Shown here: piece after piece, positions 22,806 to 51,962 of the stretch
How positions within the stretch are numbered: the first letter of the stretch is position 1
Layout: every line of letters begins with the position of its first letter
NCBI GenBank assembly: GCA_000004985.1
Contig: GG738874.1
DNA from: Naegleria gruberi
Taxonomy: Eukaryota
Length of the DNA stretch: 64,000 nt
Reading direction: 5' to 3' (one strand)
Notes under the pieces: model-generated
Told to the model about the DNA's origin: nothing
The model's database searches: none
What the model saw: the letters and a program-made list of their open reading frames with translations, nothing else
Position numbers and translations under genes: made by a program

Positions 22806-22810
22806 ATTCT

Positions 22811-23974: not shown

Positions 23975-24728
23975 TTTTTTTTATCTGATTCTTTTCGAAA
24001 GGTTTCACTAGTAATGCTCGAATTGGAAGGAAGAGTCCAAAGATGGTCTTCCAGCTGCTGTTGGAATCTGTAAATCTTTAGCTTAATATTTATTACTGTT
24101 CGATACCAGCTTGGCTAGACAGTAAATTTTATTATTAAAAAATGGCGGGAAAAGCTGTGAACGAATGTTTCTTCCCCATTTCGTTCACTATTGAGCAAAA
24201 GGAACTGAAAAACTCGTCGACACCAGATGTGGTGGTGGCAAAAAAGCGCAGAAAAAAACGACACAAATATATATCAGGTGCATATCAAAGGTTGTTTGAT
24301 TTTGAAACCAACTTGTTCACTCGCTTTTTATCAATTGTCTTACCAAATGATGAAGATTTGAAAATAGTCCAGTGGTCATATATCCTTAGTGTCATTGTAT
24401 TCCATCTAGTCTTCCAATTTATTTTACCGTGTTACCTCGCTTGCAAAGTGGAAGAAAAAGATATTTTGCAAGGGAAGCTATTGTGATTTTGTGTGGCTTG
24501 GTCAATTATTCACTAGAAGAAAAAAAGGTGATTGAAAGGGAAGAAAATATTTTCACGCTTTTTCTGTCCACGTGTGTTCATCATTAGAGAAGAGAACACT
24601 TTCAACATCACGTTCATCAATTTATAGAATATACTTCTTCCTTTTTGTGTGAGTATTCAGAAGTGTAACAACAAAAGAAAAAGAAGAATTTTAAACAATT
24701 TTGCCTACTACACTACTTCATCATCATT

Positions 24729-29267: not shown

Positions 29268-32200
29268 TTATTGGGTATTGGCAAAGAGGTTGGAAACACT
29301 TCTATTGTTTGAGTAGAGGAGTGGATTGTTTTTCAAGTGTCTGTGATGTTTGTCATTGAGCAAATAGGTCTTGACAATTCCCTTTCCTTTCACATCAACT
29401 TCTCTCTCTTCAAAATCATATCCCAAATCGAAAACTCTTTCATAAGTTGATCTGGAGATTTGAATTCGTCCATTCTTTGAAGTGGATTCCATTCGAGAAG
29501 CAATATTGATGGTATCACCCCATAAATCGTAGGCAAACTTTTTCATTCCAATCACTCCAGCAACAACTGATCCTGTATTAATTCCAACTCGAATATTGAT
29601 TTGTTGAGGTGGTGGAGAGGATGATTTCACCTTTAATTCATTATCTGTTTCCTTAACAACCTCCTCTTGTTCATTATTATCAACAGATTTGAGTCGATTT
29701 GAATTGAAATCATTTATCACTCCAAATGTTTCAATTGCAAATTTTAAAACTCTTTCAGGATGATCACTTGTTGCAGCTCCAGGTAATCCACCCACTGCAA
29801 AATAGGCATCTCCAATTGTTTTGATCTTTTCCAAATCATATTTTTCAGTCAACATGTCAAATCCATTCACAATTGAGTTCAACATCATTACTAAATCAGT
29901 GGCTTGCATATTACTACTTATGGCTGTAAATCCAACCATATCTGAAAAGAAACAAGTGATATCATCCAATTTTTCAGCAATGAATGTATGTCCACTTTTC
30001 AATCTTGAAGCAACACTTGTTGGTAAGATATTCTTCAAGAGATTATCCGATTTTTGTTTCTCTTCACTCAATAAGGCATTTTGTTTCTTTTCAGAAGTTA
30101 AATCTTTCATTGTGACAATCAGAATATTTCTCATTGAACCTCTTTCACCTTGAATTTTGACAGTGAAGAGTGTTATTTTGCAAGGGAATTTGGTTTGATT
30201 TCTTCTGATACAATCTAATTCAACAATTTCACATTTTCCATTTCCTTCTTCACTCTCCTTGCTGGATTGTTTCAATTGAACATCTTCATCATCTTGATCT
30301 TCATCCTTCTTATCAGAATCTTTTCCACTCTTTTTGAAAATATACTTGATACACTTGTTGAGTTCATCTTGGTGTGTTGATTCAACCAATTGTGAAATTG
30401 AAGTTCCCAAAACATCAATTGGTTTCATTCCAAACATTTTCAATGCAGAATAATTCAAAAATTCAATTTCATGATTCTCATTACAAATAATACTTCCTTC
30501 AACACTTGAATTGAAAACATTCTTCAAATCAGAAATGGATGAAGCGGAAGATGATGATGATTTGTCCTTCTTTTTCATTCTTGTACTCAATGAATTGGTA
30601 TTGTTATAGAGGATAAAGTTTCTCAATGTTTCATTCCTCTCTAAAACTTCAACTGGAATATATTGTGACATTAATCGAAGTGAATGTAATTGACCACAAT
30701 AATTGGAGTAGATGATATACATCAGAAAGAAGAAAACCATACACCCAACAATTTCCACACCTGCAAAGCTTATTACTACATCATAAGAGGGAGCTGTAGA
30801 GGAGGAAATGAATGCCTTGATGAAAATTGTGAACTTGTTACTCAATGCTAGTGCCATTCTCATAGCAAGGTTATGCCGTATCCCTAAATCAGCTATTGGA
30901 AGAAGAATACCTTTTGGAGTTGCTGCCTTTTGAAGAGAATTTTGCTTTCTGGAGTCAGTCAATAATTGAGGAACCAGGGTCATGTAATCATTCAAAAGTG
31001 TTTCCAAACCGATGCAGTACATCATATTTGTTTCTATTGTAAGAGTCATATTATTTTCTTGCAAATAGTCAGAGCAATTAGATGAAACGCCATGATTAAT
31101 AAGTGAGTCAACACCTGGATACATTCCTAAAATTGGTCTGGTACCAACAGAGGCATCCCCATAAATTAATCTTGACCACATACTACTAAGAGTTGGTAAT
31201 CTATTTGTTGCTCTGTCAAAGAGTACATTGAAATTTGTAACAGTATTGAATAATCTTGGATCACCATATGTAACATTTCTTTTGAAATTAACTGCCAATG
31301 GAGAAATATTGTTTGAAATTTCACTTGCAACAAAGTAGGTCATTACTTCACCTGTGTTAAATGCGATTCTCTGTACAGATGTTGCAGCTTGAATACTTAA
31401 TCTTACATTGTTCATCACTCTACCAGCAGTTTGGGCATTGAAGTCGCTTTCATAATAGAACATGGCAATACTTGCACATGTAAATAAGGTAATCAGCGAA
31501 ATCAAAATAATTGTTGAAATGTTTGATTTCATTTTGGCAAGTGAGAAAGTATTGTCAGCATTATTGGCAGTATCAGTTGTTTTGTTGTTGAGAGAGTGAA
31601 ATATTTTTCCAATCACATCTTTGCTCAAATGTTTTTCATATATTTTCACAATTTTTGTCATATGACTCATTTCAAATATCATATAACTCAAATAAGCAAT
31701 ACTGATCAAAAAGAATGCAACTAGAACTGCACCTGAATAATACACCAAATTTTGAGTTGTTAGATCTACTGCATCTGTTGATCTATCAAGATAACGGGCG
31801 CAAAAAGTATCAAAAGCCAGTGAAGCAGTTTCTCTATTCGCAAACAGGAACATGAAATTGTAATTCTTCAATGGGTGAAAGTACAAATCAGTTGCTGCAA
31901 TATTTAGCAATAGAGTTTGATAGGACGGATCATAGTTATGGCTTGAAATATTTGTCAACAAGTTAATTGGAAAGGTGTCAATCATATTTTGGGTATACTT
32001 GATCATGTGGTTTGTAAATTCAAGAATGGATATATTCTTTTGACTTGCACTTCCTAAATCATACAAATTCAAATCTTTTGAATTTTCATTTGGAAAGTTA
32101 CAAGTGTAAATGTTAGCAGAATAATCTGAATATACATCTACATCGAAAGAATTACTTTGACTCAATTTGATAAGATTCTTGTAAATATCAATATTGTCTT

Positions 32201-34748
32201 GCAATCGTTTGTAGGAATTCTTGATATATTCAGTTTTGGAAAGAGTCTCATATCCTTGATAGGTATTTGGCCATGGATATTCAAAAAACATGAAGGTATT
32301 AATGAAGTTCTGTGTTGCCCTAATGTTTCTAAGTACAGAGTAAGGAGAAATACTTGGTTGACAAACTTGTTGGAGGTAAGGAACTCCTGATTTTACCATA
32401 TTTGAATAATAGGCACTGAGAGCCAGTGATGCAACAAACAGAGCAACAACAACCAGGGCGTAAATGCAAGTGATAGATAGTGTGAGAGTATTTGATCTTT
32501 GTGATGAAATGGCATTCTTGAAAATTTGCTCCTTTTTAATCTTTGGATTTTCAAATGCACTTGCCATATCATCTTCATTTGGTTCCTCTTGAGCCAAGTA
32601 CATTTCATAAGTATTTTTTACCTCTGACACAAGTGGCATAATTCTATTTCCTCTCTTATTGACTGTATTATTTGCAAATGAAGCTTTCCTTCTCTTTTTA
32701 ATTTCCTCTTCTTCAATGGAGGACGCTTCATTGTAATAGTATTGTGCTAATTCTGAATTGAATTCAAAATTTTCCAAAAAGTTTCCATATAATCTGAGAA
32801 GTGTCTTGTTATTCTTATTGTTGAAAATTAAATTTTGCAACGTATTTCTACATTGAGTGGTCAAAGCATAAATGGAACGATTAATCTTTTCAACAGATGA
32901 ATAATTAATTCTTTCAGAGGCCATTTCTTTCCAAAAGTTTCTGTGAAGAACCAACAAGTTATTTTGATTCTTTTCTAGAATATCTAATTGAGAGGTTAAT
33001 TCAAATGAATTGCTTGTTGATTTGGATTTTAAATTGAATGATTCAATTTGTTTCATTTTCTCTCTGATTTTAAATTGTTGGAAAATGTTTGGATGTTGTG
33101 ATGAGGCTCTTTTCAATAAACTCATTGAAAAGACACAATTATTTGAATCTAACCATTGTGTTTGAATCAAGAGTGCAGAATAGATTAATAGATCAACATT
33201 ATTGAATGATTTTTGATGAGCTGCACCTCTTATGAAAGACATGGCCAATTCACAATCTTTCAATATTTGATTATTTTCAGTAGTGCTATTATTGTTAGTA
33301 TTATTGGATGATTTGTTTAGTGTAGAATTGGATAAACATGATTTGATGAATAATTTCAATAATGATAACTTGTTGAAATCTTCAAACATGTAATATAAAT
33401 TCATTGCATTCTTTTCAATTAAAATAAGTGATGAAATGGTTCCATAATTTTCATGACCTTCAATTCCATTCAATATCATATTTCTTGCTCTCTTCAATTG
33501 TAAACGTTGATACAGTTCCATTGTCAATGTGCCAACAGTAAAGAAAATGATAATAAGAGCAAGTGTCATTAATGAAAATGCAATTCCCATCATTTCAAAA
33601 TTGGCCCTCTCAGAATCTGAAGATGAAGATGTTATCGATGATGAATTGACCAATGAAGAAACGAGTGAACCAATACTCGCACCAACTCTTGCTGACATTA
33701 CACCAAAATACAATGAATTTTCAAATCTTCTCAAACATGGCATGCTATAGAATACCAAAACACAACAAATTAGTGAAACTAGTAAATGAAAAATTGCTGA
33801 TATGAAAATATAATTGGTTGGTAATAATTGAGACAATACCAATTGTAAAATACTCAGACAACCAATCAAACTAAAAATGAATGGATTTTCAATCAACATT
33901 GGAATTTGAGATTCTGGATTTGAATTGCATGTTATAAATTCTGATAATGGAAAGACAAAAGTGACCAAAACTAAAATTGAAATAATTGAAAGAATTAACA
34001 TGATCAAATTGGTGGTGTCATTAATACATGCTTGATTCGGATATCTCATCAATGAAGCAATCATATCAGAAGATTCATCAGCATCATTCATCATCATTGT
34101 TGAACTACAATTGAGAAAACCAAGCAACACATAAACAAACAACAAGGAGAATGGTTTTACAATCAAAGCACAATAAAAAGTAAACCATTTCAATTTCTTA
34201 TAATACTTGTTCTGTTTGTTGGCTAATCGAATTGAAATTACATAAAAAACAGCCATAATCAATATAATTGCAATGAAAACAGAACCAATTCCAACAACAC
34301 CCAAATAAGGAATCATTCTTGCAATCAAAGTCGTTGGAAAATTGAAAGCATCAATTAAAATATAACTTCCAACATGTCCCCATTTAAAATCTGAAAGAGT
34401 TGTCATGAAAATTAAACACCACATCCAATAAACATTCACAAATAAAAAGATTGAATAATTTTTCCATCCCTTCTTTGCCTCACAATCTTGTAAAGTGATA
34501 ATACTATTGGTGAGTAATATCTTTGCCTGATAAGTGATTGAATTAGTTTCGGTTGTGGTTGTATGAGTGTTGGCACTGTGCAAACTTTCAGAGCCAACAT
34601 GAGATGGTGTTGGTTGTAAGAGATTAGATGGATGTTGTTGCTGAGCATTGAAGGAGAAGGCAGCGCTGTAGGAATCGAATAAATTATTGGAAGAAATGTT
34701 TCGTGTTGTTTCGTTTGGATTGGAATGATTTGAGTTGGATTCCTCCAT
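29268..34748 (-). CDS. Multi-TM PAS-domain class III nucleotidyl (adenylyl/guanylyl) cyclase, copy 1, 1826 aa
   Basis: True ATG at 34748. Two clusters of TM helices, a PAS-like segment (EGSIICNENHEIEFLNYSALKMFGMKPIDVLGTSISQLVE) and a catalytic CHD domain (FFSDMVGFTAISS...IKTIGDAYFAVGGLPG...GINTGSVVAGVIG...WGDTINIASRMEST). Confidence 0.7.
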   Translation of the reverse strand: MEESNSNHSNPNETTRNISSNNLFDSYSAAFSFNAQQQHPSNLLQPTPSHVGSESLHSANTHTTTTETNSITYQAKILLTNSIITLQDCEAKKGWKNYSIFLFVNVYWMWCLIFMTTLSDFKWGHVGSYILIDAFNFPTTLIARMIPYLGVVGIGSVFIAIILIMAVFYVISIRLANKQNKYYKKLKWFTFYCALIVKPFSLLFVYVLLGFLNCSSTMMMNDADESSDMIASLMRYPNQACINDTTNLIMLILSIISILVLVTFVFPLSEFITCNSNPESQIPMLIENPFIFSLIGCLSILQLVLSQLLPTNYIFISAIFHLLVSLICCVLVFYSMPCLRRFENSLYFGVMSARVGASIGSLVSSLVNSSSITSSSSDSERANFEMMGIAFSLMTLALIIIFFTVGTLTMELYQRLQLKRARNMILNGIEGHENYGTISSLILIEKNAMNLYYMFEDFNKLSLLKLFIKSCLSNSTLNKSSNNTNNNSTTENNQILKDCELAMSFIRGAAHQKSFNNVDLLIYSALLIQTQWLDSNNCVFSMSLLKRASSQHPNIFQQFKIREKMKQIESFNLKSKSTSNSFELTSQLDILEKNQNNLLVLHRNFWKEMASERINYSSVEKINRSIYALTTQCRNTLQNLIFNNKNNKTLLRLYGNFLENFEFNSELAQYYYNEASSIEEEEIKKRRKASFANNTVNKRGNRIMPLVSEVKNTYEMYLAQEEPNEDDMASAFENPKIKKEQIFKNAISSQRSNTLTLSITCIYALVVVALFVASLALSAYYSNMVKSGVPYLQQVCQPSISPYSVLRNIRATQNFINTFMFFEYPWPNTYQGYETLSKTEYIKNSYKRLQDNIDIYKNLIKLSQSNSFDVDVYSDYSANIYTCNFPNENSKDLNLYDLGSASQKNISILEFTNHMIKYTQNMIDTFPINLLTNISSHNYDPSYQTLLLNIAATDLYFHPLKNYNFMFLFANRETASLAFDTFCARYLDRSTDAVDLTTQNLVYYSGAVLVAFFLISIAYLSYMIFEMSHMTKIVKIYEKHLSKDVIGKIFHSLNNKTTDTANNADNTFSLAKMKSNISTIILISLITLFTCASIAMFYYESDFNAQTAGRVMNNVRLSIQAATSVQRIAFNTGEVMTYFVASEISNNISPLAVNFKRNVTYGDPRLFNTVTNFNVLFDRATNRLPTLSSMWSRLIYGDASVGTRPILGMYPGVDSLINHGVSSNCSDYLQENNMTLTIETNMMYCIGLETLLNDYMTLVPQLLTDSRKQNSLQKAATPKGILLPIADLGIRHNLAMRMALALSNKFTIFIKAFISSSTAPSYDVVISFAGVEIVGCMVFFFLMYIIYSNYCGQLHSLRLMSQYIPVEVLERNETLRNFILYNNTNSLSTRMKKKDKSSSSSASSISDLKNVFNSSVEGSIICNENHEIEFLNYSALKMFGMKPIDVLGTSISQLVESTHQDELNKCIKYIFKKSGKDSDKKDEDQDDEDVQLKQSSKESEEGNGKCEIVELDCIRRNQTKFPCKITLFTVKIQGERGSMRNILIVTMKDLTSEKKQNALLSEEKQKSDNLLKNILPTSVASRLKSGHTFIAEKLDDITCFFSDMVGFTAISSNMQATDLVMMLNSIVNGFDMLTEKYDLEKIKTIGDAYFAVGGLPGAATSDHPERVLKFAIETFGVINDFNSNRLKSVDNNEQEEVVKETDNELKVKSSSPPPQQINIRVGINTGSVVAGVIGMKKFAYDLWGDTINIASRMESTSKNGRIQISRSTYERVFDLGYDFEEREVDVKGKGIVKTYLLNDKHHRHLKNNPLLYSNNRSVSNLFANTQ

Positions 34749-36125: not shown

Positions 36126-39100
36126 TTAGTTGGAGAAAAGTATTGGCATGCTTCTATTGTTTGAGTAGAGGAGTGGATTGTTTTTCAAGTGTCTGTGATG
36201 TTTGTCATTGAGCAAATAGGTCTTGACAATTCCTTTTCCTTTCACATCAACTTCTCTCTCTTCAAAATCATATCCCAAATCGAAAACTCTTTCATAAGTT
36301 GATCTGGAGATTTGAATTCGTCCATTCTTTGAAGTGGATTCCATTCGAGAAGCAATATTGATGGTATCACCCCATAAATCGTAGGCAAACTTTTTCATTC
36401 CAATCACTCCAGCAACAACTGATCCTGTATTAATTCCAACTCGAATATTGATTTGTTGAGGTGGTGGAGAGGATGATTTCACCTTTAATTCATTATCTGT
36501 TTCCTTAACAACCTCCTCTTGTTCATTATTATCAACAGATTTGAGTCGATTTGAATTGAAATCATTTATCACTCCAAATGTTTCAATTGCAAATTTTAAA
36601 ACTCTTTCAGGATGATCACTTGTTGCAGCTCCAGGTAATCCACCCACTGCAAAATAGGCATCTCCAATTGTTTTGATCTTTTCCAAATCATATTTTTCAG
36701 TCAACATGTCAAATCCATTCACAATTGAGTTCAACATCATGACTAAATCAGTGGCTTGCATATTACTACTTATGGCTGTAAATCCAACCATATCTGAAAA
36801 GAAACAAGTGATATCATCCAATTTTTCAGCAATGAATGTATGTCCACTTTTCAATCTTGAAGCAACACTTGTTGGTAAAATGTTCTTCAAGAGATTATCC
36901 GATTTTTGTTTCTCTTCACTCAATAAGGCATTTTGTTTCTTTTCAGAAGTTAAATCTTTCATTGTGACAATCAGAATATTTCTCATTGAACCTCTTTCAC
37001 CTTGAATTTTGACAGTGAAGAGTGTTATTTTGCAAGGGAATTTGGTTTGATTTCTTCTGATACAATCCAATTCAACAATTTCACATTTTCCATTTCCTTC
37101 TTCACTCTCCCTCTTCACTTGTTTCAATTGAACATCTTCATCATCTTGATCTTCATCCTTCTTATCAGAATCTTTTCCACTCTTTTTGAAAATATACTTG
37201 ATACACTTGTTGAGTTCATCCTGTTGAGTGGATTCAACTAATTGTGAAATTGAAGTTCCCAAAACATCAATTGGTTTCATTCCAAACATTTTCAATGCAG
37301 AATAATTCAAAAATTCAATTTCATGATTCTCATTACAAATGATACTTCCTTCAACACTTGAATTGAAAACATTCTTCAAATCAGAAATGGATGAAGTTGA
37401 AGATGATGATGACTTGTCCTTCTTTTTCATTCTTGTACTCAATGAATTGGTATTATTATAGAGGATAAAGTTTCTCAATGTTTCATTCCTCTCTAAAACT
37501 TCAACTGGAATATATTGTGACATTAATCGAAGTGAATGTAATTGACCACAATAGTTCATATAGATAGTGTAAAGCAGACTAAATATAACCAAACATGCCA
37601 AAAATTCTAAACAAGCAAAAACAATGGTAACACCAAACGAAGGATTTGATGATGAGCTCACAAATACCTTCATAAATGTAACGAACTTGTTGGTAAGAGC
37701 TACACTCATTCTCAACGCTTGGTTATGTGATAGAGCAACATCTGTTGGTGCAAGAAGAATACCTTTTGGAGTTGCTGCCTTTTGAAGAGTGTTTTGCTTT
37801 CTAGATTCGGTCAATAATTGAGGAATCAATGTCAAATAATCATTTAAAAGTGTTTCCAAACCAACACAATACATCATATATGATTCCATTGTTAATGTAA
37901 TATTATTCTTTTGAAGGTAGTCAGAGCAATTAGATGATACACCTTGAGTAACAAGAGAGTCAACATCAGAATATCTTCCCAATATCTGGTCATCTCCAGT
38001 GTTTGGATCACCATAAATTAGTCTTGACCACATACTACTAAGAGTTGGAAGTCTTGTTGTCACTCTGTCAAAGAGTACATTGAAATTTGTAACAGTATTG
38101 AATAATCTTGGATCACCATATGTAACATTTCTTTTGAAATTCACTGCCAATGGAGAAATTTTGTTAGAAATTTCACTTGCAACAAAGTAGGTCATTACTT
38201 CTCCACTGTTAAATCCAATTCTTTGAATAATTGTGGCAGCTTGAATACTCAATCTTACATTCTTCATAACCTTAGAACTGCTGAAAGCGTTGGCATTACT
38301 TTCATAATAGAACATGGCAATACTTGCACATGTAAATAAGGTAATCAGAGAAATCAAAATAATTGTTGAAATGTTTGATTTCATTTTGGCAAGTGAGAAA
38401 GTATTGTCAGCATTATTGGCTGTATCAGTTGTTTTGTTGTTGAGAGAGTGAAATATTTTTCCAATCACATCTTTGCTCAAATGTTTTTCATATATTTTCA
38501 CAATTTTTGTCATATGACTCATTTCAAATATCATATAACTCAAATAAGCAATACTGATCAAAAAGAATGCAACTAGAACTGCACCTGTATAATACACCAA
38601 ATTTTGAGTTGACAATTCAATTGAATCAATAGATCTATCAAGATAACGGGCACAAAAAGTATCAAAAGCCAGTGAAGCAGTTTCTCTATTCGCAAACAGG
38701 AACATGAAATTGTAATTCTTCAATGGATTGAAGTACTTGTCGCTAGCAACTAAATCCAACAACGCTGATTGAGTAAATGCATCATTGTTGTTATTGGAAA
38801 TATTTTGTAGTAAATCCCAAGGAAATTCATTGATTACATTCTGAGTATATTTGATCATATTGTTTGTAAATTCAAGAATTGAAACATTCTTTTGAGATGA
38901 ACTTCCCAAATCGTATATCGTGACATCTTTCGAATTTTCATTTGGATAATTGATGGTAAAATTATTAATAGAATAATCTGAATATACAGTCTCATCAAAT
39001 GAATTACTCTGACCTAATTTGATCAAAGTCTTATAAACCTCTAGCTCTTCTTTAAGTCTTTTCAAAGAGTTGGCAAAGTAATTAGGTTTTGTAGAAATAA

Positions 39101-41386
39101 TATTTCCCTGATAACTAATAGGCCATGGATACTCAAATAACATGAAGGTATTTACAAAATTTTGAGTGGCTCTAACATTTCTTAGAGCAGAATAAGGAGA
39201 AATACTTGGTTGACAAACTTGTTGAAGGAAAGGCACTCCTGAAATTACTGCATCAGAGTAGTATGAACTCAGTGCTATGGAAGAAACAACAAGGCACAAG
39301 CAAACAAATATGTAGAGTAAACTAATTATAACTGTTGTAGAATTTGACCTTTGTGATGAAATTGCATTCTTGAAAATTTGCTCTTTCCTCATCTTGGGAT
39401 TTTCAAATGCACTTTCCATATCATCTTCATTTGGTTGTTCTTCTACTGGGAATAAGTATGGTTCAAAGTTGGCCTTGGTTTCGTGGAGAGGCATTACACG
39501 GTTAGTTCCTCTCTTATTACTAGTAGCATTACTAAACACAGAAGCTCTTCTCTTCTTTTTCATTTCCTCTTCTTCAATGGAGGAAGCTTCATTGTAATAG
39601 TATTGTGCTAATTCTGAATTGAATTCAAAATTTTCCAAAAAATTTCCATATAATCTGAGAAGTGTCTTGTTATTCTTATTGTTGAAAATTAAATTTTGCA
39701 ACGTATTTCTGCATTGAGTGGTCAAAGCATAAATGGAACGATTAATCTTTTCAACAGATGAATAATTAATTCTCTCAGAGGCCATTTCTTTCCAAAAGTT
39801 TCTGTGAAGAACCAACAAGTTATTTTGATTCTTTTCTAGAATATCTAATTGAGAGGTTAATTCAAATGAATTGCTTGTTGATTTGGATTTTAAATTGAAT
39901 GATTCAATTTGTTTCATTTTCTCTCTGATTTTAAATTGTTGGAAAATGTTTGGATGTTGTGATGAGGCTCTTTTCAATAAACTCATTGAAAAGACACAAT
40001 TATTTGAATCCAACCATTGTGTTTGAATCAAGAGTGCTGAATAGATTAATATATCAACATTATTGAATGATTTTTGATGAGCTGCTCCTCTTATGAAGGA
40101 CATGGCCAATTCACAATCTTTCAATATTTGATTATTTTCAGTAGTGCTATTATTGTTAGTTGGATGATTTGTTTAGTGTAGAATTGGATAGACATGATTT
40201 GATGAATAATTTCAATAATGATAACTTGTTGAAATCTTCAAACATGTAATATAAATTCATTGCATTCTTTTCAATCAAAGTAAGTGGAGAAATGGTTCCA
40301 TAATTTTCATGACCTTCAATTCCATTCAATATCATATTTCTTGCTCTCTTCAATTGTAAACGTTGATAAAATTCCATTGTCAATGTGCCAATAGTAAAGA
40401 AAATGAAAATAAGAGCAAGTGTCATTAATGAAAATGCAATACCCATCATTTCAAAATTGGCCCTCTCAGAATCTGAAGATGAAGATGTTATGGATGATGA
40501 ATTGACCAATGAAGAAACGAGTGAACCAATACTCGCACCAACTCTTGCTGACATTACACCAAAATACAATGAATTTTCAAATCTTCTCAAACATGGCATG
40601 CTATAGAACACCAAAACACAACAAATCAGTGAAACTAGTAAATGAAAAATTGCTGAAATGAAAATATAATTGGTTGGTAATAATTGAGACAATACCAATT
40701 GTAAAATACTCAAAGAACCAATCAAACTGAAAATGAATGGATTTTCAATCAACATTGGAATTTGAGATTCTGGATTTGAATTGCAAGTTATGAATTCTGA
40801 TAATGGAAAGACAAAAGTGACCAAAACTAAAATTGAAATAATTGAGAGAATTAACATGATCAAATTGGTGGTATCATCAATACATGCTTGATTAGGATAT
40901 CTCATCAATGAAGCAATCATATCAGTAGATTCATCAGCATCATTCATCATCATTGTTGAACTACAATTGAGAAAACCAAGCAACACATAAACAAACAACA
41001 ATGAGAATGGTTTTACAATCAAAGCACAATAAAAAGTGAAGTATTTCAATTTCTTATAATACTTGTTCTGTTTGTTGGCTAATCGAATTGAAATTACATA
41101 AAAAACAGCCATTATTAATATAATTGCAATAAAAACAGAACCAATTCCAACAACACCCAAATAAGGAATCATTCTTGCAATCAAAGTCGTTGGAAAATTA
41201 AACGCATCAATTAAAATATAACTTCCAACTTTTCCCCAATTAAAATCTGAAAGAGTTGTCATGAAAATTAAACACCACATCCAATAAACATTCACAAATA
41301 AAAAGATTGAATAATTTTTCCATCCCTTCTTTGCCTCACAATCTTGTAAAGTGATAATACTATTGGTGAGCAATATCTTTGCCTGA
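36126..41386 (-). pseudogene. PAS-domain nucleotidyl cyclase copy 2 (tandem paralog), disrupted as assembled. Body 36126..40124 plus N-terminal portion 40156..41386, separated by a frameshift
   Basis: The 3' half (36126-~38850) is nearly identical to copy 1 while the middle is divergent. Relative to copy 1, 5 nt (attat) are missing at ~40129 in an Asn-rich tract, creating ...LNKSSN* and then a frame change. The 5' coding continues into the N gap at 41387. Confidence 0.5.
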
Positions 41387-41436
41387 NNNNNNNNNNNNNN
41401 NNNNNNNNNNNNNNNNNNNNNNNNNNNNNNNNNNNN
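41387..41436. other. Assembly gap (50 N)
   Basis: Run of n characters. Confidence 0.95.
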
Positions 41437-42507
41437 GTGGCAAATGTTGAGAGTGTACCATTAATATCAATCTTTTTGATAGACCAAGTTGGATTGTTTT
41501 CAACAAAGTAAATATCACCAGTCATTAACGAAACTGTGACTGTGTTTGGATTGGTCAACTTGACAGTATTAGCTGGAAGGCCATCAGTGTTTTCATTAGA
41601 TGATGAACCTGATGCTGCAACACCAGCAATGGTTGATACAACAGTAGGAATGTTATCGAAAACTTCTTGTTCAGGATCAACAATAACACCAGTCCAATTA
41701 TAAGTTAATTTTCTGATTAAATTATTTGCTCTGTCAATAATGATCAAATCTTGAGGTCTTTCATCTTCTACCAAATTTACAAGAGGTGTAGGAATTGTTC
41801 TAGGATAGAATGCAATAGCGTGTGGATGACCGATTGGTGTATCAAGTCCATTATAGCCATCACCAAGATTACCTCCAGCGATGGTTTCCAATTTGTATGT
41901 AGGAGCCAAGTTGTTATCTGAAGATGTTGCATTGATGGTAGTAGTACTAAACAACAACATCATCAAGAGAAGGCTACTAATAAATAAAGATAATAAATAT
42001 TCGTGATGAGAAAAAGATTTTACTCTCCCTGCAGAGTCGAAAAACCTCTTCATTTTTGTGCCTTTTTTTCTTCTTGTCGATTCACTCTACTTGTGCATAA
42101 GAGAAGAATGTTTGATGGATGGGAAGTAATTTTGGAAGGGCAAGGGCAGAAAGTATGTTGTTTGATGCTAAGAAGTGATCTCCGCATTTTGATTTTGTTG
42201 GAGTAAATTTAATTGGCTGATTATTTTTTGTTAGTATTCTTTTTGTCTTCCATTTACGAGGAAGATCTTCATGAAAGATTATTTATCTGATATTAAAGAT
42301 AGCATTGTGATGAACAGATGAAAGCAACACATTTTTATTTTTTTTAAATTATGAATTGTTTATTCTTGTAACGGTAACTTTTACTGCCCGCCACGTTTAA
42401 AAAATGAAAAGAAAGCAAGAAACAAAAAACACCAAGAAATTATCTTCATCATCCAATGAAGGACCAACAAAAAAGTTGAAGCAATCCAACCTTCTCTCCC
42501 TATTCAA
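41437..42507. repeat. 1.07-kb block duplicating 48065-49147 (5' end of the NHL/EGF gene, intergenic region, first 104 nt of the AP-endonuclease gene), inserted between two 50-N gaps inside cyclase copy 2
   Basis: Fragment ORF 41292-42053(-) matches the first 250 aa of the 43142-48688 protein. It differs slightly: an extra Ser, V vs I, and DNA variants in the upstream region. 42404-42507 matches 49038-49141. The cyclase sequence at 41381-41386 (gcctga) continues seamlessly at 42558 when aligned with copy 1 (34545-34555). Confidence 0.7.
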
Positions 42508-42557
42508 NNNNNNNNNNNNNNNNNNNNNNNNNNNNNNNNNNNNNNNNNNNNNNNNNN
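42508..42557. other. Assembly gap (50 N); single N at 42581
   Basis: Run of n characters. Confidence 0.95.
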
Positions 42558-42757
42558 GCCTGATAAGTGATTGAATTAGTNTCGGTTGTGGTTGTATGAG
42601 TGTTGGCACTGTGCAAACTTTCAGAACCAACATGAGATGGTGTTGGTTGAAGCATTGAGGAAGAGAAAGCTACGTTGGTATTTTGTTCGAGCAGGTTATT
42701 GGAAGAGGAGGATGAACCATTACTTGCATTAGGTACTGCAAGTAAGTCTTCGTTCAT
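42558..42757 (-). pseudogene. 5' coding end of cyclase copy 2 (MNEDLLAVPNASNG...LQPTPSHVGSESLHSANTHTTTT.TNSITYQ), separated from the rest of the gene by the inserted block
   Basis: True ATG at 42757. Downstream sequence is identical to the copy-1 N-terminal region from QPTPSHVGSE onward. It ends at the gap. Confidence 0.5.
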
Positions 42758-46100: not shown

Positions 46101-48688
46101 CCAATACCACCAGCAATAGTTTCAATTACATTGTTGGAGAGTTTTCTAACTCTATTATTGCCACTATCAGCAATAAAGATATTATCAGAACTATCCATAG
46201 ACAATGAAGAAGGATAATTGAGATAAGTTGTTGTGGCCAAACCATCACCATTAAATTCATAGTTTGAGTCAGATCCAGCAATTAATTGAAGAGAACCATT
46301 ATCATACTTGCTTATCATATTACCATGGGCAATATAGATTTCATCACTGCTGGAAATAACAATACTAGCAGGACTTGAAACCTCAACAAGTGTGGTAATA
46401 TTTCCATCGAGGCCAATTTTTCTGATTCTATCATTTCTGGTATCGGCAATAAACATTTCACCAATTGAATTGATAGCAATAGAATTTGGGGCATTGAGAG
46501 AGGCACAACAAGCCTTTGAACCATCTCCAGCAAAAGTTGGTGAACCATTTCCAGATACAGAAGTAATAATTCCATTAGAAATCTTTCTAATTCTATTATT
46601 GTTAGTATCTGCAAAATAAATATCACCATTAGAGGATATGTGCAAACCATTTGGATTGTTCAACAAGGCATCGGTAGCGCTAATGTTGTTTCCATTATAA
46701 CCTGTAACGGTTTGATTACCAGCAATAATAGTGACAACACCATCTGGAGACAATTTACTGATTGTGCTAAGTCCTGTAAAGTAAATATCATCTCCAAATT
46801 CATTGACACTGGTTGGGAACTCTACCACATTAGTAATAGTAGAAATGATACCGGTTGTTTGATTGATCATTCTAATTCTATTATTTCCACTGTCACAAAT
46901 GTAAATGTTGCCAGAAGTCTTTGAGGCAAAAACACCAGATGGATAGAAGAGAATTGATGAGGTAGCAACTTGTCCATCTCCTGCAAAATTATTGAGGATA
47001 CCACCAGCAACACGCTTAATAATACCATTTGAAAGAATCTTGTAAATGACATTTTCTACATTAAAGTAGGTCTCTCCTGTACCGGCAATGTAGAAGGAAG
47101 CAGATGGATTGGAAATTAATGTTGCATTGGCCAATTTACCATCCAAATCAGTTAATGTGTTTACAGGTTCTGACGAACCAATGACTGTAGAAATAATGCC
47201 TTGTTGATTAATTCTTCTAATTCTATTGTTACTTCCATCGGCAATGGTAATAATATCGGCTCCATCCTTTTGGGCGACATGAACATGATTAGGTGAGAGT
47301 GCAGACTGAATTGCTGGGCCATTATCTCCCAAATATGTTGGTTGTCCATTACCAAAAATTGTTGAAATGATTCCTTCCTCAGTAATCTTTCTAATTCTAT
47401 TGTTCATGCAGTCGGCAATAATAATCTCCTCAGCAGAAATAGCAATGAATGAAGGATTGTTCAAAGTTGCAGCAGTAGCTAAGCCACCATCTCCAATTGG
47501 TCCGATATTAGATCCAGTACCGGCTACAATGGAAATTGTATTGGTTGCTGGATTTAACATTTTGAGAATGTGTTGGGATTGTTCCAAAAAGTAGACTTCA
47601 CCCTCCTCACCAACAGCAATACTGGTTGGAGCAATGGTTGCATTGAGAGCATCAATAGGAATTGGTTGGATTGGAGAACCTGGAATTGGTTGAGCACCTG
47701 AACCTGCAACTGTTGTAATAATTCCATTGACAATCTTTCTAATGTAAAACTTGTCGGCAATGTAAATTTCTGGGATGGTATTAATTGGAGCATCTTCCAT
47801 TCTAAAAAGAGCAAGTCCTGTTGGTTGAGAAAGGAGAGCATCAGTAGCATTGATACCATTGCCAAAGTATCCCTCTTGTCCACATATACCAGCAATGGTA
47901 GTGATGGTCTTGTTGGAAATTGATAACTTTCTAATTCTAAAGTTTTGAGTATCTACAATATAGATAAACTCCTCTACACCTTCCATTGAATAGACAATTT
48001 GACTTGGAGCAGACAATTGTGCATCACTCAAAGGAGAAGGAACATTATCAGAACAAATAGAGTCCAAATTGTTAGTGGCAAATGTTGAGAGTGTACCATT
48101 AATATCAATCTTTTTGATAGACCAAGTTGGATTGTTTTCAACAAAGTAAATATCACCAGTCATTAACGAAACTGTGACTGTGTTTGGATTGGTCAACTTG
48201 ACAGTATTAGCTGGAAGGCCATCAGTGTTTTCATTAGATGAACCTGATGCTGCAACACCAGCAATGGTTGATACAATAGTAGGAATGTTATCGAAAACTT
48301 CTTGTTCAGGATCAACAATAACACCAGTCCAATTATAAGTTAATTTTCTGATTAAATTATTTGCTCTGTCAATAATGATCAAATCTTGAGGTCTTTCATC
48401 TTCTACCAAATTTACAAGAGGTGTAGGAATTGTTCTAGGATAGAATGCAATAGCGTGTGGATGACCGATTGGTGTATCAAGTCCATTATAGCCATCACCA
48501 AGATTACCTCCAGCGATGGTTTCCAATTTGTATGTAGGAGCCAAGTTGTTATCTGAAGATGTTGCATTGATGGTAGTAGTACTAAACAACAACATCATCA
48601 AGAGAAGGCTACTAATAAATAAAGATAATAAATATTCGTGATGAGAAAAAGATTTTACTCTCCCTGCAGAGTCGAAAAACCTCTTCAT
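43142..48688 (-). CDS. Giant type I membrane protein, 1848 aa: signal peptide, ~12+ NHL-type beta-propeller repeats, ~17 tandem EGF-like modules, Pro/Thr-rich stalk, single TM, short cytoplasmic tail
   Basis: True ATG at 48688 with hydrophobic signal peptide (LLSLFISSLLLMMLLFSTTTINA). Recurrent ADxxNNRIRKI/ADSGNNRVRKL units are NHL-like. Repeated CSGHGVCSSGNNCTCxxGYxGxxCExxxC units are EGF-like with 6 Cys per ~32 aa. C-terminal KTPQPTPSPNKPTPSPNKPSTSS, then YIVVLVGFILMIIIAIVIGVGYYIY (TM), then KKKQGQ.... Confidence 0.7.
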   Translation of the reverse strand: MKRFFDSAGRVKSFSHHEYLLSLFISSLLLMMLLFSTTTINATSSDNNLAPTYKLETIAGGNLGDGYNGLDTPIGHPHAIAFYPRTIPTPLVNLVEDERPQDLIIIDRANNLIRKLTYNWTGVIVDPEQEVFDNIPTIVSTIAGVAASGSSNENTDGLPANTVKLTNPNTVTVSLMTGDIYFVENNPTWSIKKIDINGTLSTFATNNLDSICSDNVPSPLSDAQLSAPSQIVYSMEGVEEFIYIVDTQNFRIRKLSISNKTITTIAGICGQEGYFGNGINATDALLSQPTGLALFRMEDAPINTIPEIYIADKFYIRKIVNGIITTVAGSGAQPIPGSPIQPIPIDALNATIAPTSIAVGEEGEVYFLEQSQHILKMLNPATNTISIVAGTGSNIGPIGDGGLATAATLNNPSFIAISAEEIIIADCMNNRIRKITEEGIISTIFGNGQPTYLGDNGPAIQSALSPNHVHVAQKDGADIITIADGSNNRIRRINQQGIISTVIGSSEPVNTLTDLDGKLANATLISNPSASFYIAGTGETYFNVENVIYKILSNGIIKRVAGGILNNFAGDGQVATSSILFYPSGVFASKTSGNIYICDSGNNRIRMINQTTGIISTITNVVEFPTSVNEFGDDIYFTGLSTISKLSPDGVVTIIAGNQTVTGYNGNNISATDALLNNPNGLHISSNGDIYFADTNNNRIRKISNGIITSVSGNGSPTFAGDGSKACCASLNAPNSIAINSIGEMFIADTRNDRIRKIGLDGNITTLVEVSSPASIVISSSDEIYIAHGNMISKYDNGSLQLIAGSDSNYEFNGDGLATTTYLNYPSSLSMDSSDNIFIADSGNNRVRKLSNNVIETIAGGIGDGLLATQAALSSVSSFVVSASSEIYIADNVANRIRKVSAEGVISTIAGNYNYGYNADNIKATLASLANPTSVALSPEGEVFISDFASHRIRKVSNDGIISTVLEGSESDDTIYYPRSVSVSPKGDFIVVCNGDSTIIRFNLKEENATISTIAGKTGINGFNGEVVLDSRLALLNRPLFADISPDGSTVYIADSGNSRVRKLTAMCPKGYRLNDAAECEKLPRICFGLLPSNETVCSGNGVCESYNNCSCFAGYYGEQCELFGCNGIPKEDPNVCSSQGVCISANNCTCNNGYYGNNCEHYDCFGVEHSNPSVCSQAGLCSLPNKCECRDGHSGETCQYFTCFGKQSNDSTVCSGHGVCSSGNNCTCKPGYYGNECENYGCFGLAHNDEKVCSSHGVCEAIDKCVCEQNFNGSSCEFYYCNGVEHADPNVCSANGYCTAPGRCECKEAYEGVNCESFTCYGISSTNTSTVCSGHGVCSSGNNCTCQAGYSGKECQNYQCFGVLNSNKQVCSGNGICKSVDKCECQAGYYGNVCEHFDCFGIMHNDTQVCSSKGVCSKPDLCECTEPYYGHTCEAFKCHGIPSNDTNVCSGHGVCSSGNNCTCVLGYEGENCESFSCNGLDKNDPQVCSGNGICSSPNKCNCTSGFSGNNCENYYCYGIHYSDPNVCSGNGVCESPDSCQCAYGYNGPQCATNIICPPGDTSLFCSVVNNTALKNLTETNIIDVQDMEDMESFNITFTKFKDIFITLPASISDYLETILRDEEIPLNMASSVSDIRSVNSKVLSPAVTFIITQQGNNQRVELNNLPDPILLNMHNIVVPTSALARHSVALSRIACAYYDKATDSWKTDRVTTTILSSQQGATASTYSVVCSTTHWPSSFALIAQPITPPTSSSGKTPQPTPSPNKPTPSPNKPSTSSNKPTSSSAGTIITEKGDKSYIVVLVGFILMIIIAIVIGVGYYIYKKKQGQTAPQNQNDGNGNYATLTEEP
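44000..45480 (-). repeat. Intragenic tandem array of ~96-99-bp units encoding the EGF-like modules
   Basis: Periodic recurrence of tgttcatctgg(a/t)aataattgtac-type segments. The many short ORFs on both strands here are by-products of this periodicity. Confidence 0.6.
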
Positions 48689-49037
48689 TTTTGTGCCTTT
48701 TTTTCTTCTTGTCGATTCACTCTACTTGTGCATAAGAGAAGAATGTTTGATGGATGGGAAGTAATTTTGGAAGGGCAAGGGCAGAAAGTATGTTGTTTGA
48801 TGCTAAGAAGTGATCTCCGCATTTTGATTTTGTTGGAGTAAATTTAATTGGCTGATTATTTTTTGTTAGTATTCTTTTTGTCTTCCATTTACGAGAAGAT
48901 CTTCACGAAAGATTATTTATCTGATATTAAAGATAGCATTGTGATGAACAGATGAAAGCAACACATTTTTATTTTTTTTAAATTATGAATTGTTTATTCT
49001 TGTAACGGTAACTTTTACTGCCCGCCACGTTTAAAAA

Positions 49038-50150
49038 ATGAAAAGAAAGCAAGAAACAAAAAACACCAAGAAATTATCTTCATCATCCAATGAAGGACCA
49101 ACAAAAAAGTTGAAGCAATCCAACCTTCTCTCCCTATTCAAGGCACCTTCATCACCACCAGCCTCATCGCAATCCTCTACTGATACTGACTCATTGACAA
49201 TAGTAGAGGAGAGTAAAACCTTCTTGGGCACGAATAATAGCTATGAATTGAACAAGCAATTTAAATTCATCAGCTGGAATGTGAATGGAATATCTGCCGT
49301 CTTTAGGAAGGAACCCAATTATTTGAAAATGTTGGTAGAGAAGGAAGAACCTACTTGTCTTTGTTTGCAAGAGACTAAGCTTTCTGAAGATGTAAAATTA
49401 TCGGAAATGGCACAATATAAATTCAAGAATTATATTGGACACTTTAACACTTCTAGGGCAAGAAAAGGATACTCTGGTACTGCTTGTTTTGTTCTAAAGC
49501 ATGGTCCAAAAGTATTGAATGTCAAGTTTGGTATTGGTAAGGATAAGCATGATTTGGAGGGAAGAACTATTACTGTTGAATATGAAGACTTTTATTTGGT
49601 CAAGTAAGTTAATATTTACACATGTGTAATCTCATGCCTTATTATTGAATGAATTGATTCAAAATGATAATCATTTTGTTGACATAATAATAGTACTTAT
49701 TGTCCCAATTCTGGACAAAATCTCGATCGATTGGAATATAGAACAAAGGAATGGGATGTGGATCTACTCAAATACTTTGAAAAATTGGAAAAGAAAAAGC
49801 CAATCATTTGGGGTGGTGATCTTAATGTTGCCATTTCAGAGATGGATATTCATGATCCTCTTACATTATCCAAAAGTCCTGGTTTTACATTGGAAGAACG
49901 GCAATCTTCTCCTCTCGTAACAAAGGCCTCACCTCCTTTTATTGATTCTTTCAGATATAAAAATCCATATAAGAAACAATACACATACTATGGTTACATT
50001 AATGACATGAGATTACAAAAGAAAGGATGGAGAATTGATTATTTTGTTTGTAGTAATTCTCTAAAAGACAAGATTGTAAATTCTTACATTCTTGAGGAAT
50101 ACTTTGGCAGTGACCATCTACCAATTGGTTTAATCATTAATAAGGAGTAG
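49038..50150 (+). CDS. APE1/exonuclease III-family AP endonuclease, two exons: join(49038..49603,49694..50150)
   Basis: True ATG 49038. Exon 1 ...TVEYEDFYLV ends in phase 2 before GTAAGT at 49604. Acceptor is aataAG|... at 49692-49693. The spliced product ...[26 protein letters not shown]...IIWGGDLNVA...GSDHLPI aligns to the human APE1 blocks [34 protein letters not shown] and SDHCPI. The ORF-track second half starts at a TTG inside exon 2. Confidence 0.7.
49604..49693 (+). other. Intron, 90 nt, GTAAGT...AATAG
   Basis: Only this splice restores the conserved YVPN(A/S)G motif of the ExoIII fold and keeps the reading frame. Confidence 0.65.
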
Positions 50151-50370
50151 ATAACAACTTGGTTTGGAATGTTCATCTCAATGGTCTTTTCGAATAGGTG
50201 TTTATGCAAAATGATAATGAAAACATTCACAAAACATCAAGACAAATCACCAAACCTTAAATGTACGGTTTTATCTCAGGGCATCAAGCTTCATTCTATT
50301 ACACTTTAATCTCTTGACGAACAGACAATTAATTGAAAAAATTATTCAAACATATTAGAGAAGAAGAAGA

Positions 50371-51960: not shown

Positions 51961-51962
51961 AT

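What the first reader, a model, noticed from the sequence alone, without database searches (positions are those of the whole stretch)
41387..42557. Probable scaffold artefact or haplotig: 1.07-kb copy of the NHL/EGF-gene 5' region inserted between two 50-N gaps inside cyclase copy 2
Removing 41387-42557 makes cyclase copy 2 continuous and collinear with copy 1 (gcctga|taagtgattg). The inserted block duplicates 48065-49147 but has an extra Ser codon, V/I changes and upstream substitutions, so it is a divergent copy rather than an exact repeat. The likeliest explanation is an allelic contig wrongly placed into the scaffold of a heterozygous or polyploid genome. A real insertional duplication that disrupts the cyclase is also possible.
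Basis: seen in the sequence. Interest (0 to 1): 0.5.

Follow-up and report, generated by a model that had tools for sequence, protein, structure and literature searches.

The report
Misplaced allelic contig in Naegleria scaffold
A 1,071-base piece sitting between two 50-N gaps inside a cyclase gene of the Naegleria gruberi draft genome is almost certainly the second allele of a region 6.6 kb away that the scaffolder put in the wrong place, so it is an ordinary assembly error and not a real insertion.

Summary
Window 41437-42507 (1,071 bp, between two 50-N runs) is a same-strand, end-to-end copy of 48075-49141. It differs at four events only: a 3-bp indel (an extra Ser), one V/I transition, one 1-bp indel and one transition in the intergenic spacer.

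The cyclase flanks do more than abut. They overlap by 6 bp (gcctga). Once the block, both gaps and one gcctga are removed, cyclase copy 2 is collinear with copy 1 and reads in frame through the join.

New evidence:
- The window is Naegleria gruberi, from a 401,612-bp scaffold.
- A near-identical strain in an ENA metagenome carries the block's state at all four differences. The block has no private differences. Its variants are therefore real alleles, not read errors.
- An annotated N. gruberi protein on a different 43,173-bp scaffold carries the block's allele.
- The block has no terminal repeats and no sequenced junction.

Verdict: a misplaced haplotype contig (a "duplicated contained contig") in a heterozygous Sanger draft. 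It splits cyclase copy 2 and creates a false partial duplicate of two gene starts and their shared promoter. A real insertion with a 6-bp target duplication is not excluded (about 7%). Interest is low.

The parts
41387..41436 (.). Scaffold gap 1 (50 N), left boundary of the block
   Evidence: N-run scan; sequence
41437..42507 (+). The misplaced contig: a 1,071-bp second-allele copy of window 48075-49141
   Evidence: blastn 99.44% over 1,071 columns, same strand. Four differences only. All four are shared with the independent strain L002, and the block has no private differences. No terminal direct or inverted repeats.
41437..42053 (-). Within the block: codons 1-205 of the NHL/EGF (teneurin-like) gene, allele with V138 and SSS
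   Evidence: Translation and alignment to the 48688-48075 copy. Amino acids 1-178 are 100% identical to P0004 = XP_002668715.1, which lies on another scaffold.
42054..42403 (.). Within the block: copy of the 350-bp spacer between the divergently transcribed NHL/EGF and Exo_endo_phos genes (presumed shared promoter). Carries the 1-bp indel and the T/C difference.
   Evidence: Alignment. The promoter role is inferred from the gene arrangement only.
42404..42507 (+). Within the block: first 34 codons of the Exo_endo_phos (AP-endonuclease-like) gene NAEGRDRAFT_68804
   Evidence: ATG at 42404 corresponds to ATG at 49038. The full spliced gene 49038-49603 + 49694-50150 equals EFC43334.1 exactly.
42508..42557 (.). 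Scaffold gap 2 (50 N), right boundary of the block
   Evidence: N-run scan
41381..41386 (.). gcctga at the end of the left cyclase contig. The same six bases open the right contig.
   Evidence: Sequence. Both copies align to copy 1 at 34525-34530.
42558..42563 (.). gcctga at the start of the right cyclase contig (6-bp contig-end overlap)
36126..41386 (-). Cyclase copy 2, main part (TPR_TmcB, PAS, Guanylate_cyc domains). Cut by the artefact at 41386. Carries a 5-bp frameshifting deletion near 40160.
   Evidence: ORFs, Pfam, alignment to copy 1
42558..42757 (-). Cyclase copy 2, first 65 or so codons (ATG at 42757). Continues in frame into 41386 once the block is removed. Single N at 42581.
   Evidence: Translation through the joint
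29268..34748 (-). Cyclase copy 1 (intact 1,826-aa ORF = EFC43411.1, NAEGRDRAFT_68800). Serves as the collinearity reference.
48075..49141 (+). The true locus of the block's sequence: 5' end of the NHL/EGF gene (43142-48688, minus strand), the spacer, and the 5' end of the Exo_endo_phos gene. It lies inside an uninterrupted contig.
   Evidence: The same arrangement is collinear in the independent 9,371-bp contig L002.

Best explanation
The block is not inserted in the cyclase gene in the organism. It is a small contig assembled from reads of the other haplotype (allele B) of the NHL/EGF-Exo_endo_phos intergenic region at 48075-49141. The sequenced Naegleria gruberi strain is heterozygous there.

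What is shown:
- The block is a true second allele.
- Both of its borders are N placeholders.
- The cyclase contigs on either side overlap by 6 bp.
- Deleting 41387-42563 restores an in-frame copy 2 collinear with copy 1.

What is inferred (the mechanism):
- High-quality differences (a 3-bp indel, a 1-bp indel, two SNPs) kept these reads from merging into the main contig.
- The scaffolder placed the leftover contig from mate-pair links. Its true position was already occupied by a continuous contig, so it went into the only contig break nearby.
- That break lies inside cyclase copy 2, within a roughly 1.9-kb stretch that is 96-100% identical to tandem copy 1. Assemblers often stop in such stretches.
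- One tandem-repeat period (6,852 bp) to the left of the true site falls almost exactly on that break. Mates assigned to the wrong cyclase copy may therefore have caused the shift.

Consequences: cyclase copy 2 is falsely split, and a false partial duplicate of two gene starts and their shared spacer appears in the scaffold.
For: 1. Both borders are fixed 50-N runs, and no block-cyclase junction is sequenced.
2. The flanks overlap by 6 bp and both map to copy 1 at 34525-34530. The joined copy 2 gives a single 5,349-column HSP with copy 1 and the in-frame peptide TNSITYQAKILLT, identical to copy 1.
3. The block aligns over all 1,071 bp, in the same orientation, to sequence 6.6 kb away. Its 0.4% divergence contrasts with about 10% between the real tandem cyclase paralogues.
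4. In a three-way comparison with the independent strain L002 (ENA ERZ929261, 99.26% identical and collinear over 43147-52512), all four block-versus-reference differences have the block state in L002. The block has no private difference.
5. P0004 (XP_002668715.1, NAEGRDRAFT_82325) lies on a different 43,173-bp N. gruberi scaffold. It is 100% identical to the block over amino acids 1-178 (V and SSS) and 98% identical to the C-terminus of the window's NHL/EGF protein. A second allele of this gene was therefore assembled separately in this assembly.
6. The window is N. gruberi, from a 401,612-bp scaffold. The species is reported as heterozygous (PMC9928731) and strain NEG as normally diploid (PMC4819266).
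7. The block has no terminal repeats and no mobile-element content.
8. The contig break lies about 90 bp from the end of a 96-100% identical stretch shared by the two cyclase copies. An ambiguous base (N at 42581) sits 24 bases into the right contig.
9. The case fits the published class of falsely duplicated 'contained' contigs in Sanger assemblies of diploids: mostly under 2 kb, median identity 98.1%, placed near their true site (PMC2864568).
Against: - No read-level data (mate pairs, depth, long reads) could be examined, so the misplacement is inferred from the consensus sequence alone.
- The 6-bp repeat gcctga on both sides is also what a target-site duplication of a real insertion would look like.
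- The B allele of the same 5' region seems to be present a third time, on the 43-kb scaffold. That is a little unexpected for a diploid and would fit a genuine extra copy.
- Copy 2 already carries a 5-bp frameshift, so a real disruption would not necessarily be selected against.
- The identity (99.4-99.6%) is at the high end of what Kelley and Salzberg report for such contigs.
- Searches for an independent contig crossing the copy 2 junction found nothing.
Confidence: 0.8

Rival explanations
1. The insertion is real. A copy of at least 1.07 kb, covering the NHL/EGF 5' end, the spacer and the Exo_endo_phos 5' end, was pasted into the 5' coding region of cyclase copy 2. This could have happened by templated repair of a staggered break, possibly on one haplotype only, and it left a 6-bp target-site duplication (gcctga). 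The assembler broke at the heterozygous branch point, which would explain the gaps.
For: - gcctga is present on both sides.
- The donor is close by and in the same orientation.
- Copy 2 has an independent frameshift, so it may be a dispensable pseudogene.
- The B-type 5' region also exists on another scaffold, so the block could be a third, real copy.
Against: - Neither junction is sequenced, and the block ends carry no cyclase bases. At Sanger coverage, reads crossing a real junction would have joined the contigs or at least extended them across it.
- Both cyclase contigs stop exactly where collinearity with copy 1 ends.
- The block has no transposon features.
- The block shows no difference from the ancestral state shared with L002, so any duplication would have to be extremely recent.
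- Small, near-identical contigs between gaps close to their source are far more often artefacts.
Confidence: 0.07
2. The block is a misplaced contig, but it does not come from the allele of this locus. It belongs to a very recent paralogous copy of the NHL/EGF gene region located elsewhere in the genome (the 43,173-bp scaffold that encodes P0004). Sequence similarity or mate links drew it into this scaffold.
For: - P0004 lies on a different scaffold and matches the block's allele exactly over 178 aa.
- The neighbouring genes Exo_endo_phos, the 529-aa ORF and cyclase copy 1 have no second N. gruberi member in their 90% clusters. The 43-kb scaffold therefore does not look like a plain haplotype copy of the whole region.
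Against: - The divergence between the window's copy and the block/P0004 (about 0.4% DNA, 1-2% protein) is smaller than that between either one and the other strain L002. L002 shares states with the block/P0004 at 4 of 4 DNA sites and 2 of 3 protein sites. That is the pattern expected of alleles segregating in one population.
- P0004 skips about 1,500 residues of the gene. This suggests it sits on fragmentary haplotype contigs rather than on a complete second locus.
- The DNA of that scaffold could not be fetched.
Confidence: 0.12
3. The block is a redundant contig made of one or two error-rich reads from the very same allele. On this reading the four differences are sequencing errors.
For: - The size (1,071 bp) is about one Sanger read or a pair of overlapping reads.
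- Two of the four differences are indels.
Against: - All four differences are reproduced in an independent strain.
- The two coding differences are reproduced in an annotated protein from another scaffold.
- The coding indel is in frame.
- The block has no private difference in 1,071 bp.
Confidence: 0.01

Closest known systems
Falsely duplicated 'contained' contigs caused by haplotype differences in Sanger whole-genome assemblies (Kelley and Salzberg 2010, PMC2864568)
   Same: - A small contig (under 2 kb) bounded by gaps.
- It aligns over its whole length at over 98% to the interior of a nearby contig in the same scaffold.
- The differences are true polymorphisms of a diploid.
- It creates an apparent recent segmental duplication and disturbs gene annotation.
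   Different: - The defining mate-pair test could not be run here.
- The identity (99.4-99.6%) is at the high end of their distribution.
- Here the contig was dropped into a break inside another gene, so it mimics an insertional disruption rather than a plain tandem duplicate.
False gene gains from haplotype duplication in draft assemblies (Ko et al. 2022, PMC9516828; title and abstract seen only)
   Same: A heterozygous region represented twice yields spurious extra gene fragments. Here these are a second NHL/EGF 5' end and a second Exo_endo_phos start, and probably the odd gene model P0004.
   Different: That work concerns vertebrate assemblies and uses read depth and k-mers. I did not read it beyond its abstract.
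Insertion with target-site duplication (transposition or templated break repair)
   Same: A 6-bp direct repeat (gcctga) flanks the inserted material, and the donor lies nearby.
   Different: - There are no terminal repeats and no transposase or reverse-transcriptase content.
- The cargo is an arbitrary slice through two host gene starts.
- Neither junction is sequenced.
- The repeat is equally explained by two contig ends overlapping by 6 bp.

Membership tests
Haplotype-derived falsely duplicated contained contig (assembly artefact) | A separate contig inside a scaffold, bounded by gaps on both sides | tested here: met
   50-N runs at 41387-41436 and 42508-42557
Haplotype-derived falsely duplicated contained contig (assembly artefact) | Aligns over its entire length at high identity to the interior of a nearby contig, in the same orientation | tested here: met
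   Positions 1-1071 align to 48075-49141 at 99.44%, plus/plus, 6.6 kb away, inside uninterrupted sequence
Haplotype-derived falsely duplicated contained contig (assembly artefact) | Removing it leaves the flanking sequence complete and continuous | tested here: met
   Flanks overlap by 6 bp. Joined copy 2 is collinear with copy 1 and in frame
Haplotype-derived falsely duplicated contained contig (assembly artefact) | The differences from the nearby copy are real allelic polymorphisms, not errors | tested here: met
   All four differences are shared with the independent strain L002. Both coding differences are shared with P0004 on another scaffold
Haplotype-derived falsely duplicated contained contig (assembly artefact) | The organism sequenced is heterozygous | tested here: met
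   Identified as N. gruberi. The literature reports heterozygosity and a normally diploid strain NEG. Two alleles of the NHL/EGF gene are seen within the assembly
Haplotype-derived falsely duplicated contained contig (assembly artefact) | [quoted passage not shown] | not testable with these tools
   Read placements and the trace archive are not available here
Haplotype-derived falsely duplicated contained contig (assembly artefact) | Read depth about half the genome average on both copies | not testable with these tools
   No reads available
Mobile-element or break-repair insertion with target-site duplication | Short direct repeat of target sequence on both sides | tested here: inconclusive
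   gcctga is present on both sides, but it is separated from the block by N runs and is equally explained by overlapping contig ends
Mobile-element or break-repair insertion with target-site duplication | Sequenced junctions between insert and target | tested here: not met
   Both junctions are N placeholders, and the block ends carry no cyclase sequence
Mobile-element or break-repair insertion with target-site duplication | Terminal inverted or long terminal repeats, or element-encoded proteins | tested here: not met
   No terminal repeats. The content is two host gene 5' ends plus the spacer
Genuine segmental duplication (like the tandem cyclase pair in this window) | Copies embedded in continuous sequence, with divergence accumulated on both copies | tested here: not met
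   The block is isolated by gaps and has no private difference. The real tandem cyclase copies are contiguous with their flanks and 90% identical overall

The most novel reading that the evidence does not exclude
On one haplotype of N. gruberi NEG-M, a cassette of about 1.1 kb was really copied 6 kb sideways into the 5' coding region of a tandemly duplicated PAS-adenylate/guanylate cyclase paralogue, leaving a 6-bp target duplication. The cassette holds a bidirectional promoter and the first exons of two divergent genes. The event would be a very recent templated insertion that kills or rewires cyclase copy 2, and the assembler broke at the heterozygous branch.
Probability: 0.06. Interest if true: 0.35.

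Novelty: not a real feature. Interest (0 to 1): 0.08.

Why it matters
The value is mainly for curation.

- In the public N. gruberi scaffold, the artefact splits one member of the large cyclase family.
- It adds a false partial copy of a teneurin-like NHL/EGF gene start, of an AP-endonuclease-like gene start, and of their shared upstream region.
- It is linked to at least one doubtful gene model elsewhere (XP_002668715.1, which joins the N- and C-termini of the NHL/EGF allele and skips about 1,500 residues).
- Counts of paralogues, pseudogenes or recent duplications in this genome would be slightly inflated by such cases.
- The block does document real heterozygosity at this locus (four events in 1,071 bp).

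If the insertion were real, it would be a modest example of local templated insertion. It would not be a new kind of system.

Tried and rejected
- **Exact look-ups.** Look-ups of the window's NHL/EGF ORF and cyclase copy 1 ORF in the gene-position index found nothing. The same was true for P0004 and the 529-aa ORF. The DNA of the 43-kb scaffold could therefore not be read.
- **Protein search across the junction.** A search with the joined N-terminus of cyclase copy 2 found nothing, so no independent contig crossing the junction was available.
- **JGI metagenome scans.** One used the joined copy 2 N-terminus as protein; the other used a 24-mer spanning the joint.
- **Copy 2 gene model.** Three guessed start variants for the annotated copy 2 model were not in the collection, so I could not see how the annotators handled the gap.
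- **Papers not held.** Fritz-Laylin et al. 2010 (Cell) and the 2011 review are not in the library. Heterozygosity and ploidy are therefore cited second-hand from PMC9928731 and PMC4819266. A search for the metagenome project PRJEB11402 found no paper.
- **Withdrawn reading.** I first read tblastn as showing P0004's C-terminus to be only 91.5% identical to the window. The BLASTP alignment showed that figure was inflated by a spurious overlap. The real exon differs at 3 of 171 residues.
- **Rejected explanations.** The error-rich-read explanation is rejected. The mobile-element explanation is rejected.
- **Faulty comparison.** The register of my first three-way C-terminal comparison was off by one. 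The three variable sites were read from the printed sequences instead.

Full report
**What is in the sequence**

The window has two runs of exactly 50 N, at 41387-41436 and 42508-42557, and two single Ns at 20826 and 42581. Between the two long runs lie 1,071 bases (41437-42507). A self-comparison of the window shows that they match 48075-49141 on the same strand, end to end, at 99.44%.

The alignment has four differences:
- A GAT triplet is present in the block and absent in the other copy. This adds one Ser (SSS versus SS).
- A C/T transition gives Val versus Ile at residue 138.
- One extra G lies in the non-coding spacer.
- One T/C transition lies in the non-coding spacer.

The block contains three elements:
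- On the minus strand, codons 1-205 of a 1,848-residue teneurin-like NHL/EGF protein.
- The 350-bp spacer.
- On the plus strand, the first 34 codons of an Exo_endo_phos gene.

**The flanks**

Two tandem cyclase genes lie to the left. Copy 1 (29268-34748, minus strand) is an intact 1,826-aa ORF with TPR_TmcB, PAS and Guanylate_cyc domains. Copy 2 starts at 36126 and runs into the first gap.

Copy 1 at 29299-34530 aligns with 36151-41386, and copy 1 at 34525-34616 aligns with 42558-42649. The left flank ends in gcctga and the right flank begins with gcctga, so the two contig ends overlap by 6 bp relative to copy 1.

Removing 41387-42563 gives one uninterrupted 5,349-column alignment with copy 1 at 90.2%. 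It also gives an ORF that starts at ATG 42757 and reads through the joint as ...TNSITYQAKILLT..., identical to copy 1. Removing only 41387-42557 would duplicate a QA dipeptide. Nothing of the cyclase is missing, and no base of the block is joined to a base of the cyclase in sequenced DNA.

**Source organism**

Five window ORFs and one spliced protein deduced from the window are exact matches to annotated proteins of Naegleria gruberi (taxid 5762). Examples are EFC43411.1 for cyclase copy 1 and EFC43334.1 for the Exo_endo_phos gene with its 90-nt intron. All lie on a record of 401,612 bp, and they come from both sides of the gaps, so that record is the scaffold.

N. gruberi is reported to be heterozygous (PMC9928731, citing the genome paper). 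Strain NEG is reported as normally diploid, often becoming tetraploid in culture (PMC4819266). I could not read the genome paper itself. From memory only, it was a JGI Sanger shotgun assembly with plasmid and fosmid mate pairs.

**Are the block's differences real?**

An ENA metagenome assembly (ERZ929261) contains a very close relative. Contig L001 is 99.4% identical to the G-alpha gene at 22803-24006. Contig L002 (9,371 bp) is collinear with window 43147-52512 at 99.26%. L002 shows the normal arrangement: NHL/EGF gene, spacer, Exo_endo_phos gene, next gene.

In a three-way alignment over the block's interval, the 16 variable columns fall into two classes only:
- Ten columns where L002 alone differs.
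- Six columns (the four events) where the block and L002 agree against 48075-49141.

The block has no private difference in 1,071 bases. Its variants are therefore genuine and ancestral, and the copy in the main contig carries the derived states. This rules out an error-rich read.

**A second allele elsewhere in the same assembly**

A protein search with the NHL/EGF N-terminus returned P0004 (XP_002668715.1, NAEGRDRAFT_82325, 349 aa), annotated on a different N. gruberi record of 43,173 bp.
- Residues 1-178 are 100% identical to the block's translation, including V and SSS, and 98.9% identical to the main copy.
- Residues 179-349 correspond to the last 171 residues of the window's NHL/EGF protein, with three substitutions. 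At two of these three sites L002 agrees with P0004.

The assembly therefore holds a separately assembled second allele (or a very recent copy) of this gene. Its gene model skips about 1,500 residues, which suggests fragmentary haplotype contigs. I could not fetch that scaffold's DNA.

The neighbouring genes have no second N. gruberi member in their 90% clusters. The 43-kb scaffold is therefore not an obvious full-length haplotype copy of the region. This, together with the apparent triple representation of the 5' end, is the main loose end.

**What it is not**

The block has no terminal inverted or direct repeats and encodes nothing but the two host gene starts, so it is not a mobile element. 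Its 0.4% divergence contrasts with the real tandem duplication next to it, which is 90% identical overall.

**Most likely mechanism**

Shown:
- The block is a second allele.
- Both borders are placeholders.
- The flanks overlap.
- Removing the block restores the gene.

Inferred:
- The reads of allele B could not be merged with the main contig because of the indels and SNPs, and they formed a roughly 1-kb contig.
- The scaffolder placed it by mate links. Its true site was inside a continuous contig, so it went into the only contig break in the neighbourhood.
- That break is itself understandable. It lies about 90 bp from the end of a roughly 1.9-kb stretch in which the two cyclase copies are 96-100% identical, and an ambiguous base (42581) sits 24 bases into the right contig.
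- In artefact-free coordinates the block was moved about 5.5 kb to the left. One tandem period (6,852 bp) to the left of its true site is 40046-41117, right next to the break at 41386. Mates falling in the near-identical cyclase stretches and assigned to the wrong copy would produce just this shift. This last step is speculation and can be tested with the trace data.

**Comparison with known cases**

This is the class described by Kelley and Salzberg (PMC2864568). In that class, contigs align wholly to nearby sequence because two haplotypes were assembled separately. Most are under 2 kb, with median identity 98.1%, and they are detected by mate-pair consistency. The structural criteria are met here. 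The mate-pair and depth criteria cannot be tested with these tools.

**Rivals**

- *A real insertion with a 6-bp target duplication* remains possible (about 7%). The gcctga repeat, the nearby donor, the independent 5-bp frameshift in copy 2 and the third representation of the B-type sequence speak for it. Against it are the absence of any junction sequence, the exact stop of both cyclase contigs at the point of collinearity, the lack of private changes in the block, and the prior for such contigs.
- *A misplaced contig of paralogous rather than allelic origin* (about 12%) differs only in where the contig belongs.
- *Read error* is refuted.

**Verdict**

The 'insertion' is most likely not a real feature of the genome. 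Interest is low. The useful outcome is a curation note for this scaffold and for the gene models around it.

Noticed in passing
window 29268-34748 versus 36126-41386 + 42558-42757: The two tandem cyclase paralogues (period 6,852 bp) have a mosaic identity profile. Identity is about 99-100% over 29348-30100, 31448-31650 and 32739-33100, but only 65-79% over 30650-31150 and 31750-32640. This looks like repeated gene conversion between tandem copies. Less likely, it reflects partial assembly collapse.
   Followed up: partly
window about 40156-40165 (copy 2) versus about 33300 (copy 1): Copy 2 lacks five bases (ATAAT) present in copy 1. This shifts the frame and splits the ORF into 512-aa and 1,348-aa pieces. 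It may be a real pseudogenising deletion or a consensus error. Three guessed start variants of an annotated model were not found in the protein collection.
   Followed up: partly
P0004 = XP_002668715.1 (NAEGRDRAFT_82325), on a 43,173-bp N. gruberi scaffold outside the window: This 349-aa gene model joins the first 178 and the last 171 residues of an allele of the window's 1,848-aa NHL/EGF protein and skips about 1,500 residues. It is probably another product of fragmentary haplotype contigs. The DNA could not be fetched.
   Followed up: partly
L001 1-1572 and L002 1-9371 (ENA ERZ929261, run ERR1078381, project PRJEB11402): A metagenome assembly contains a Naegleria strain 99.3-99.4% identical to the window. 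L001 has about 200 extra bases at window position 24006-24012, and these extend the G-alpha ORF from 387 to 408 aa.
   Followed up: partly
window 47429-48688 (N-terminal NHL domain of the NHL/EGF protein): Apart from the N. gruberi allele, all the best database hits are bacterial or metagenomic NHL/'sugar lactone lactonase YvrE'-type proteins of about 700 aa at 27-35% identity, for example from Spirosoma and Acidobacteriota. This may only reflect the composition of the database. Origin by transfer was not examined.
   Followed up: no
window 20826 and 42581: There are two single ambiguous bases (N) in the consensus. The one at 42581 lies 24 bases inside the contig that starts after the second gap, where copy 1 has T.
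   Followed up: partly
window 10394-12618, 5654-6348, 1-183 versus 62958-62780, 28219-28858 versus 63443-62816: Other internal repeats in the window: degenerate tandem repeats inside the ORFs 9172-13434 and 4707-8426, and two inverted paralogous matches (90% over 183 bp and 68% over 649 bp) between the window's ends and the middle. None is near-identical, so there is no further haplotype-type duplicate in this window.
   Followed up: no
window 22811-23974 and 53481-54878: Two G-protein alpha subunit genes lie in the same 64 kb as the two PAS-cyclases. This fits the large signalling repertoire of this organism.
   Followed up: no
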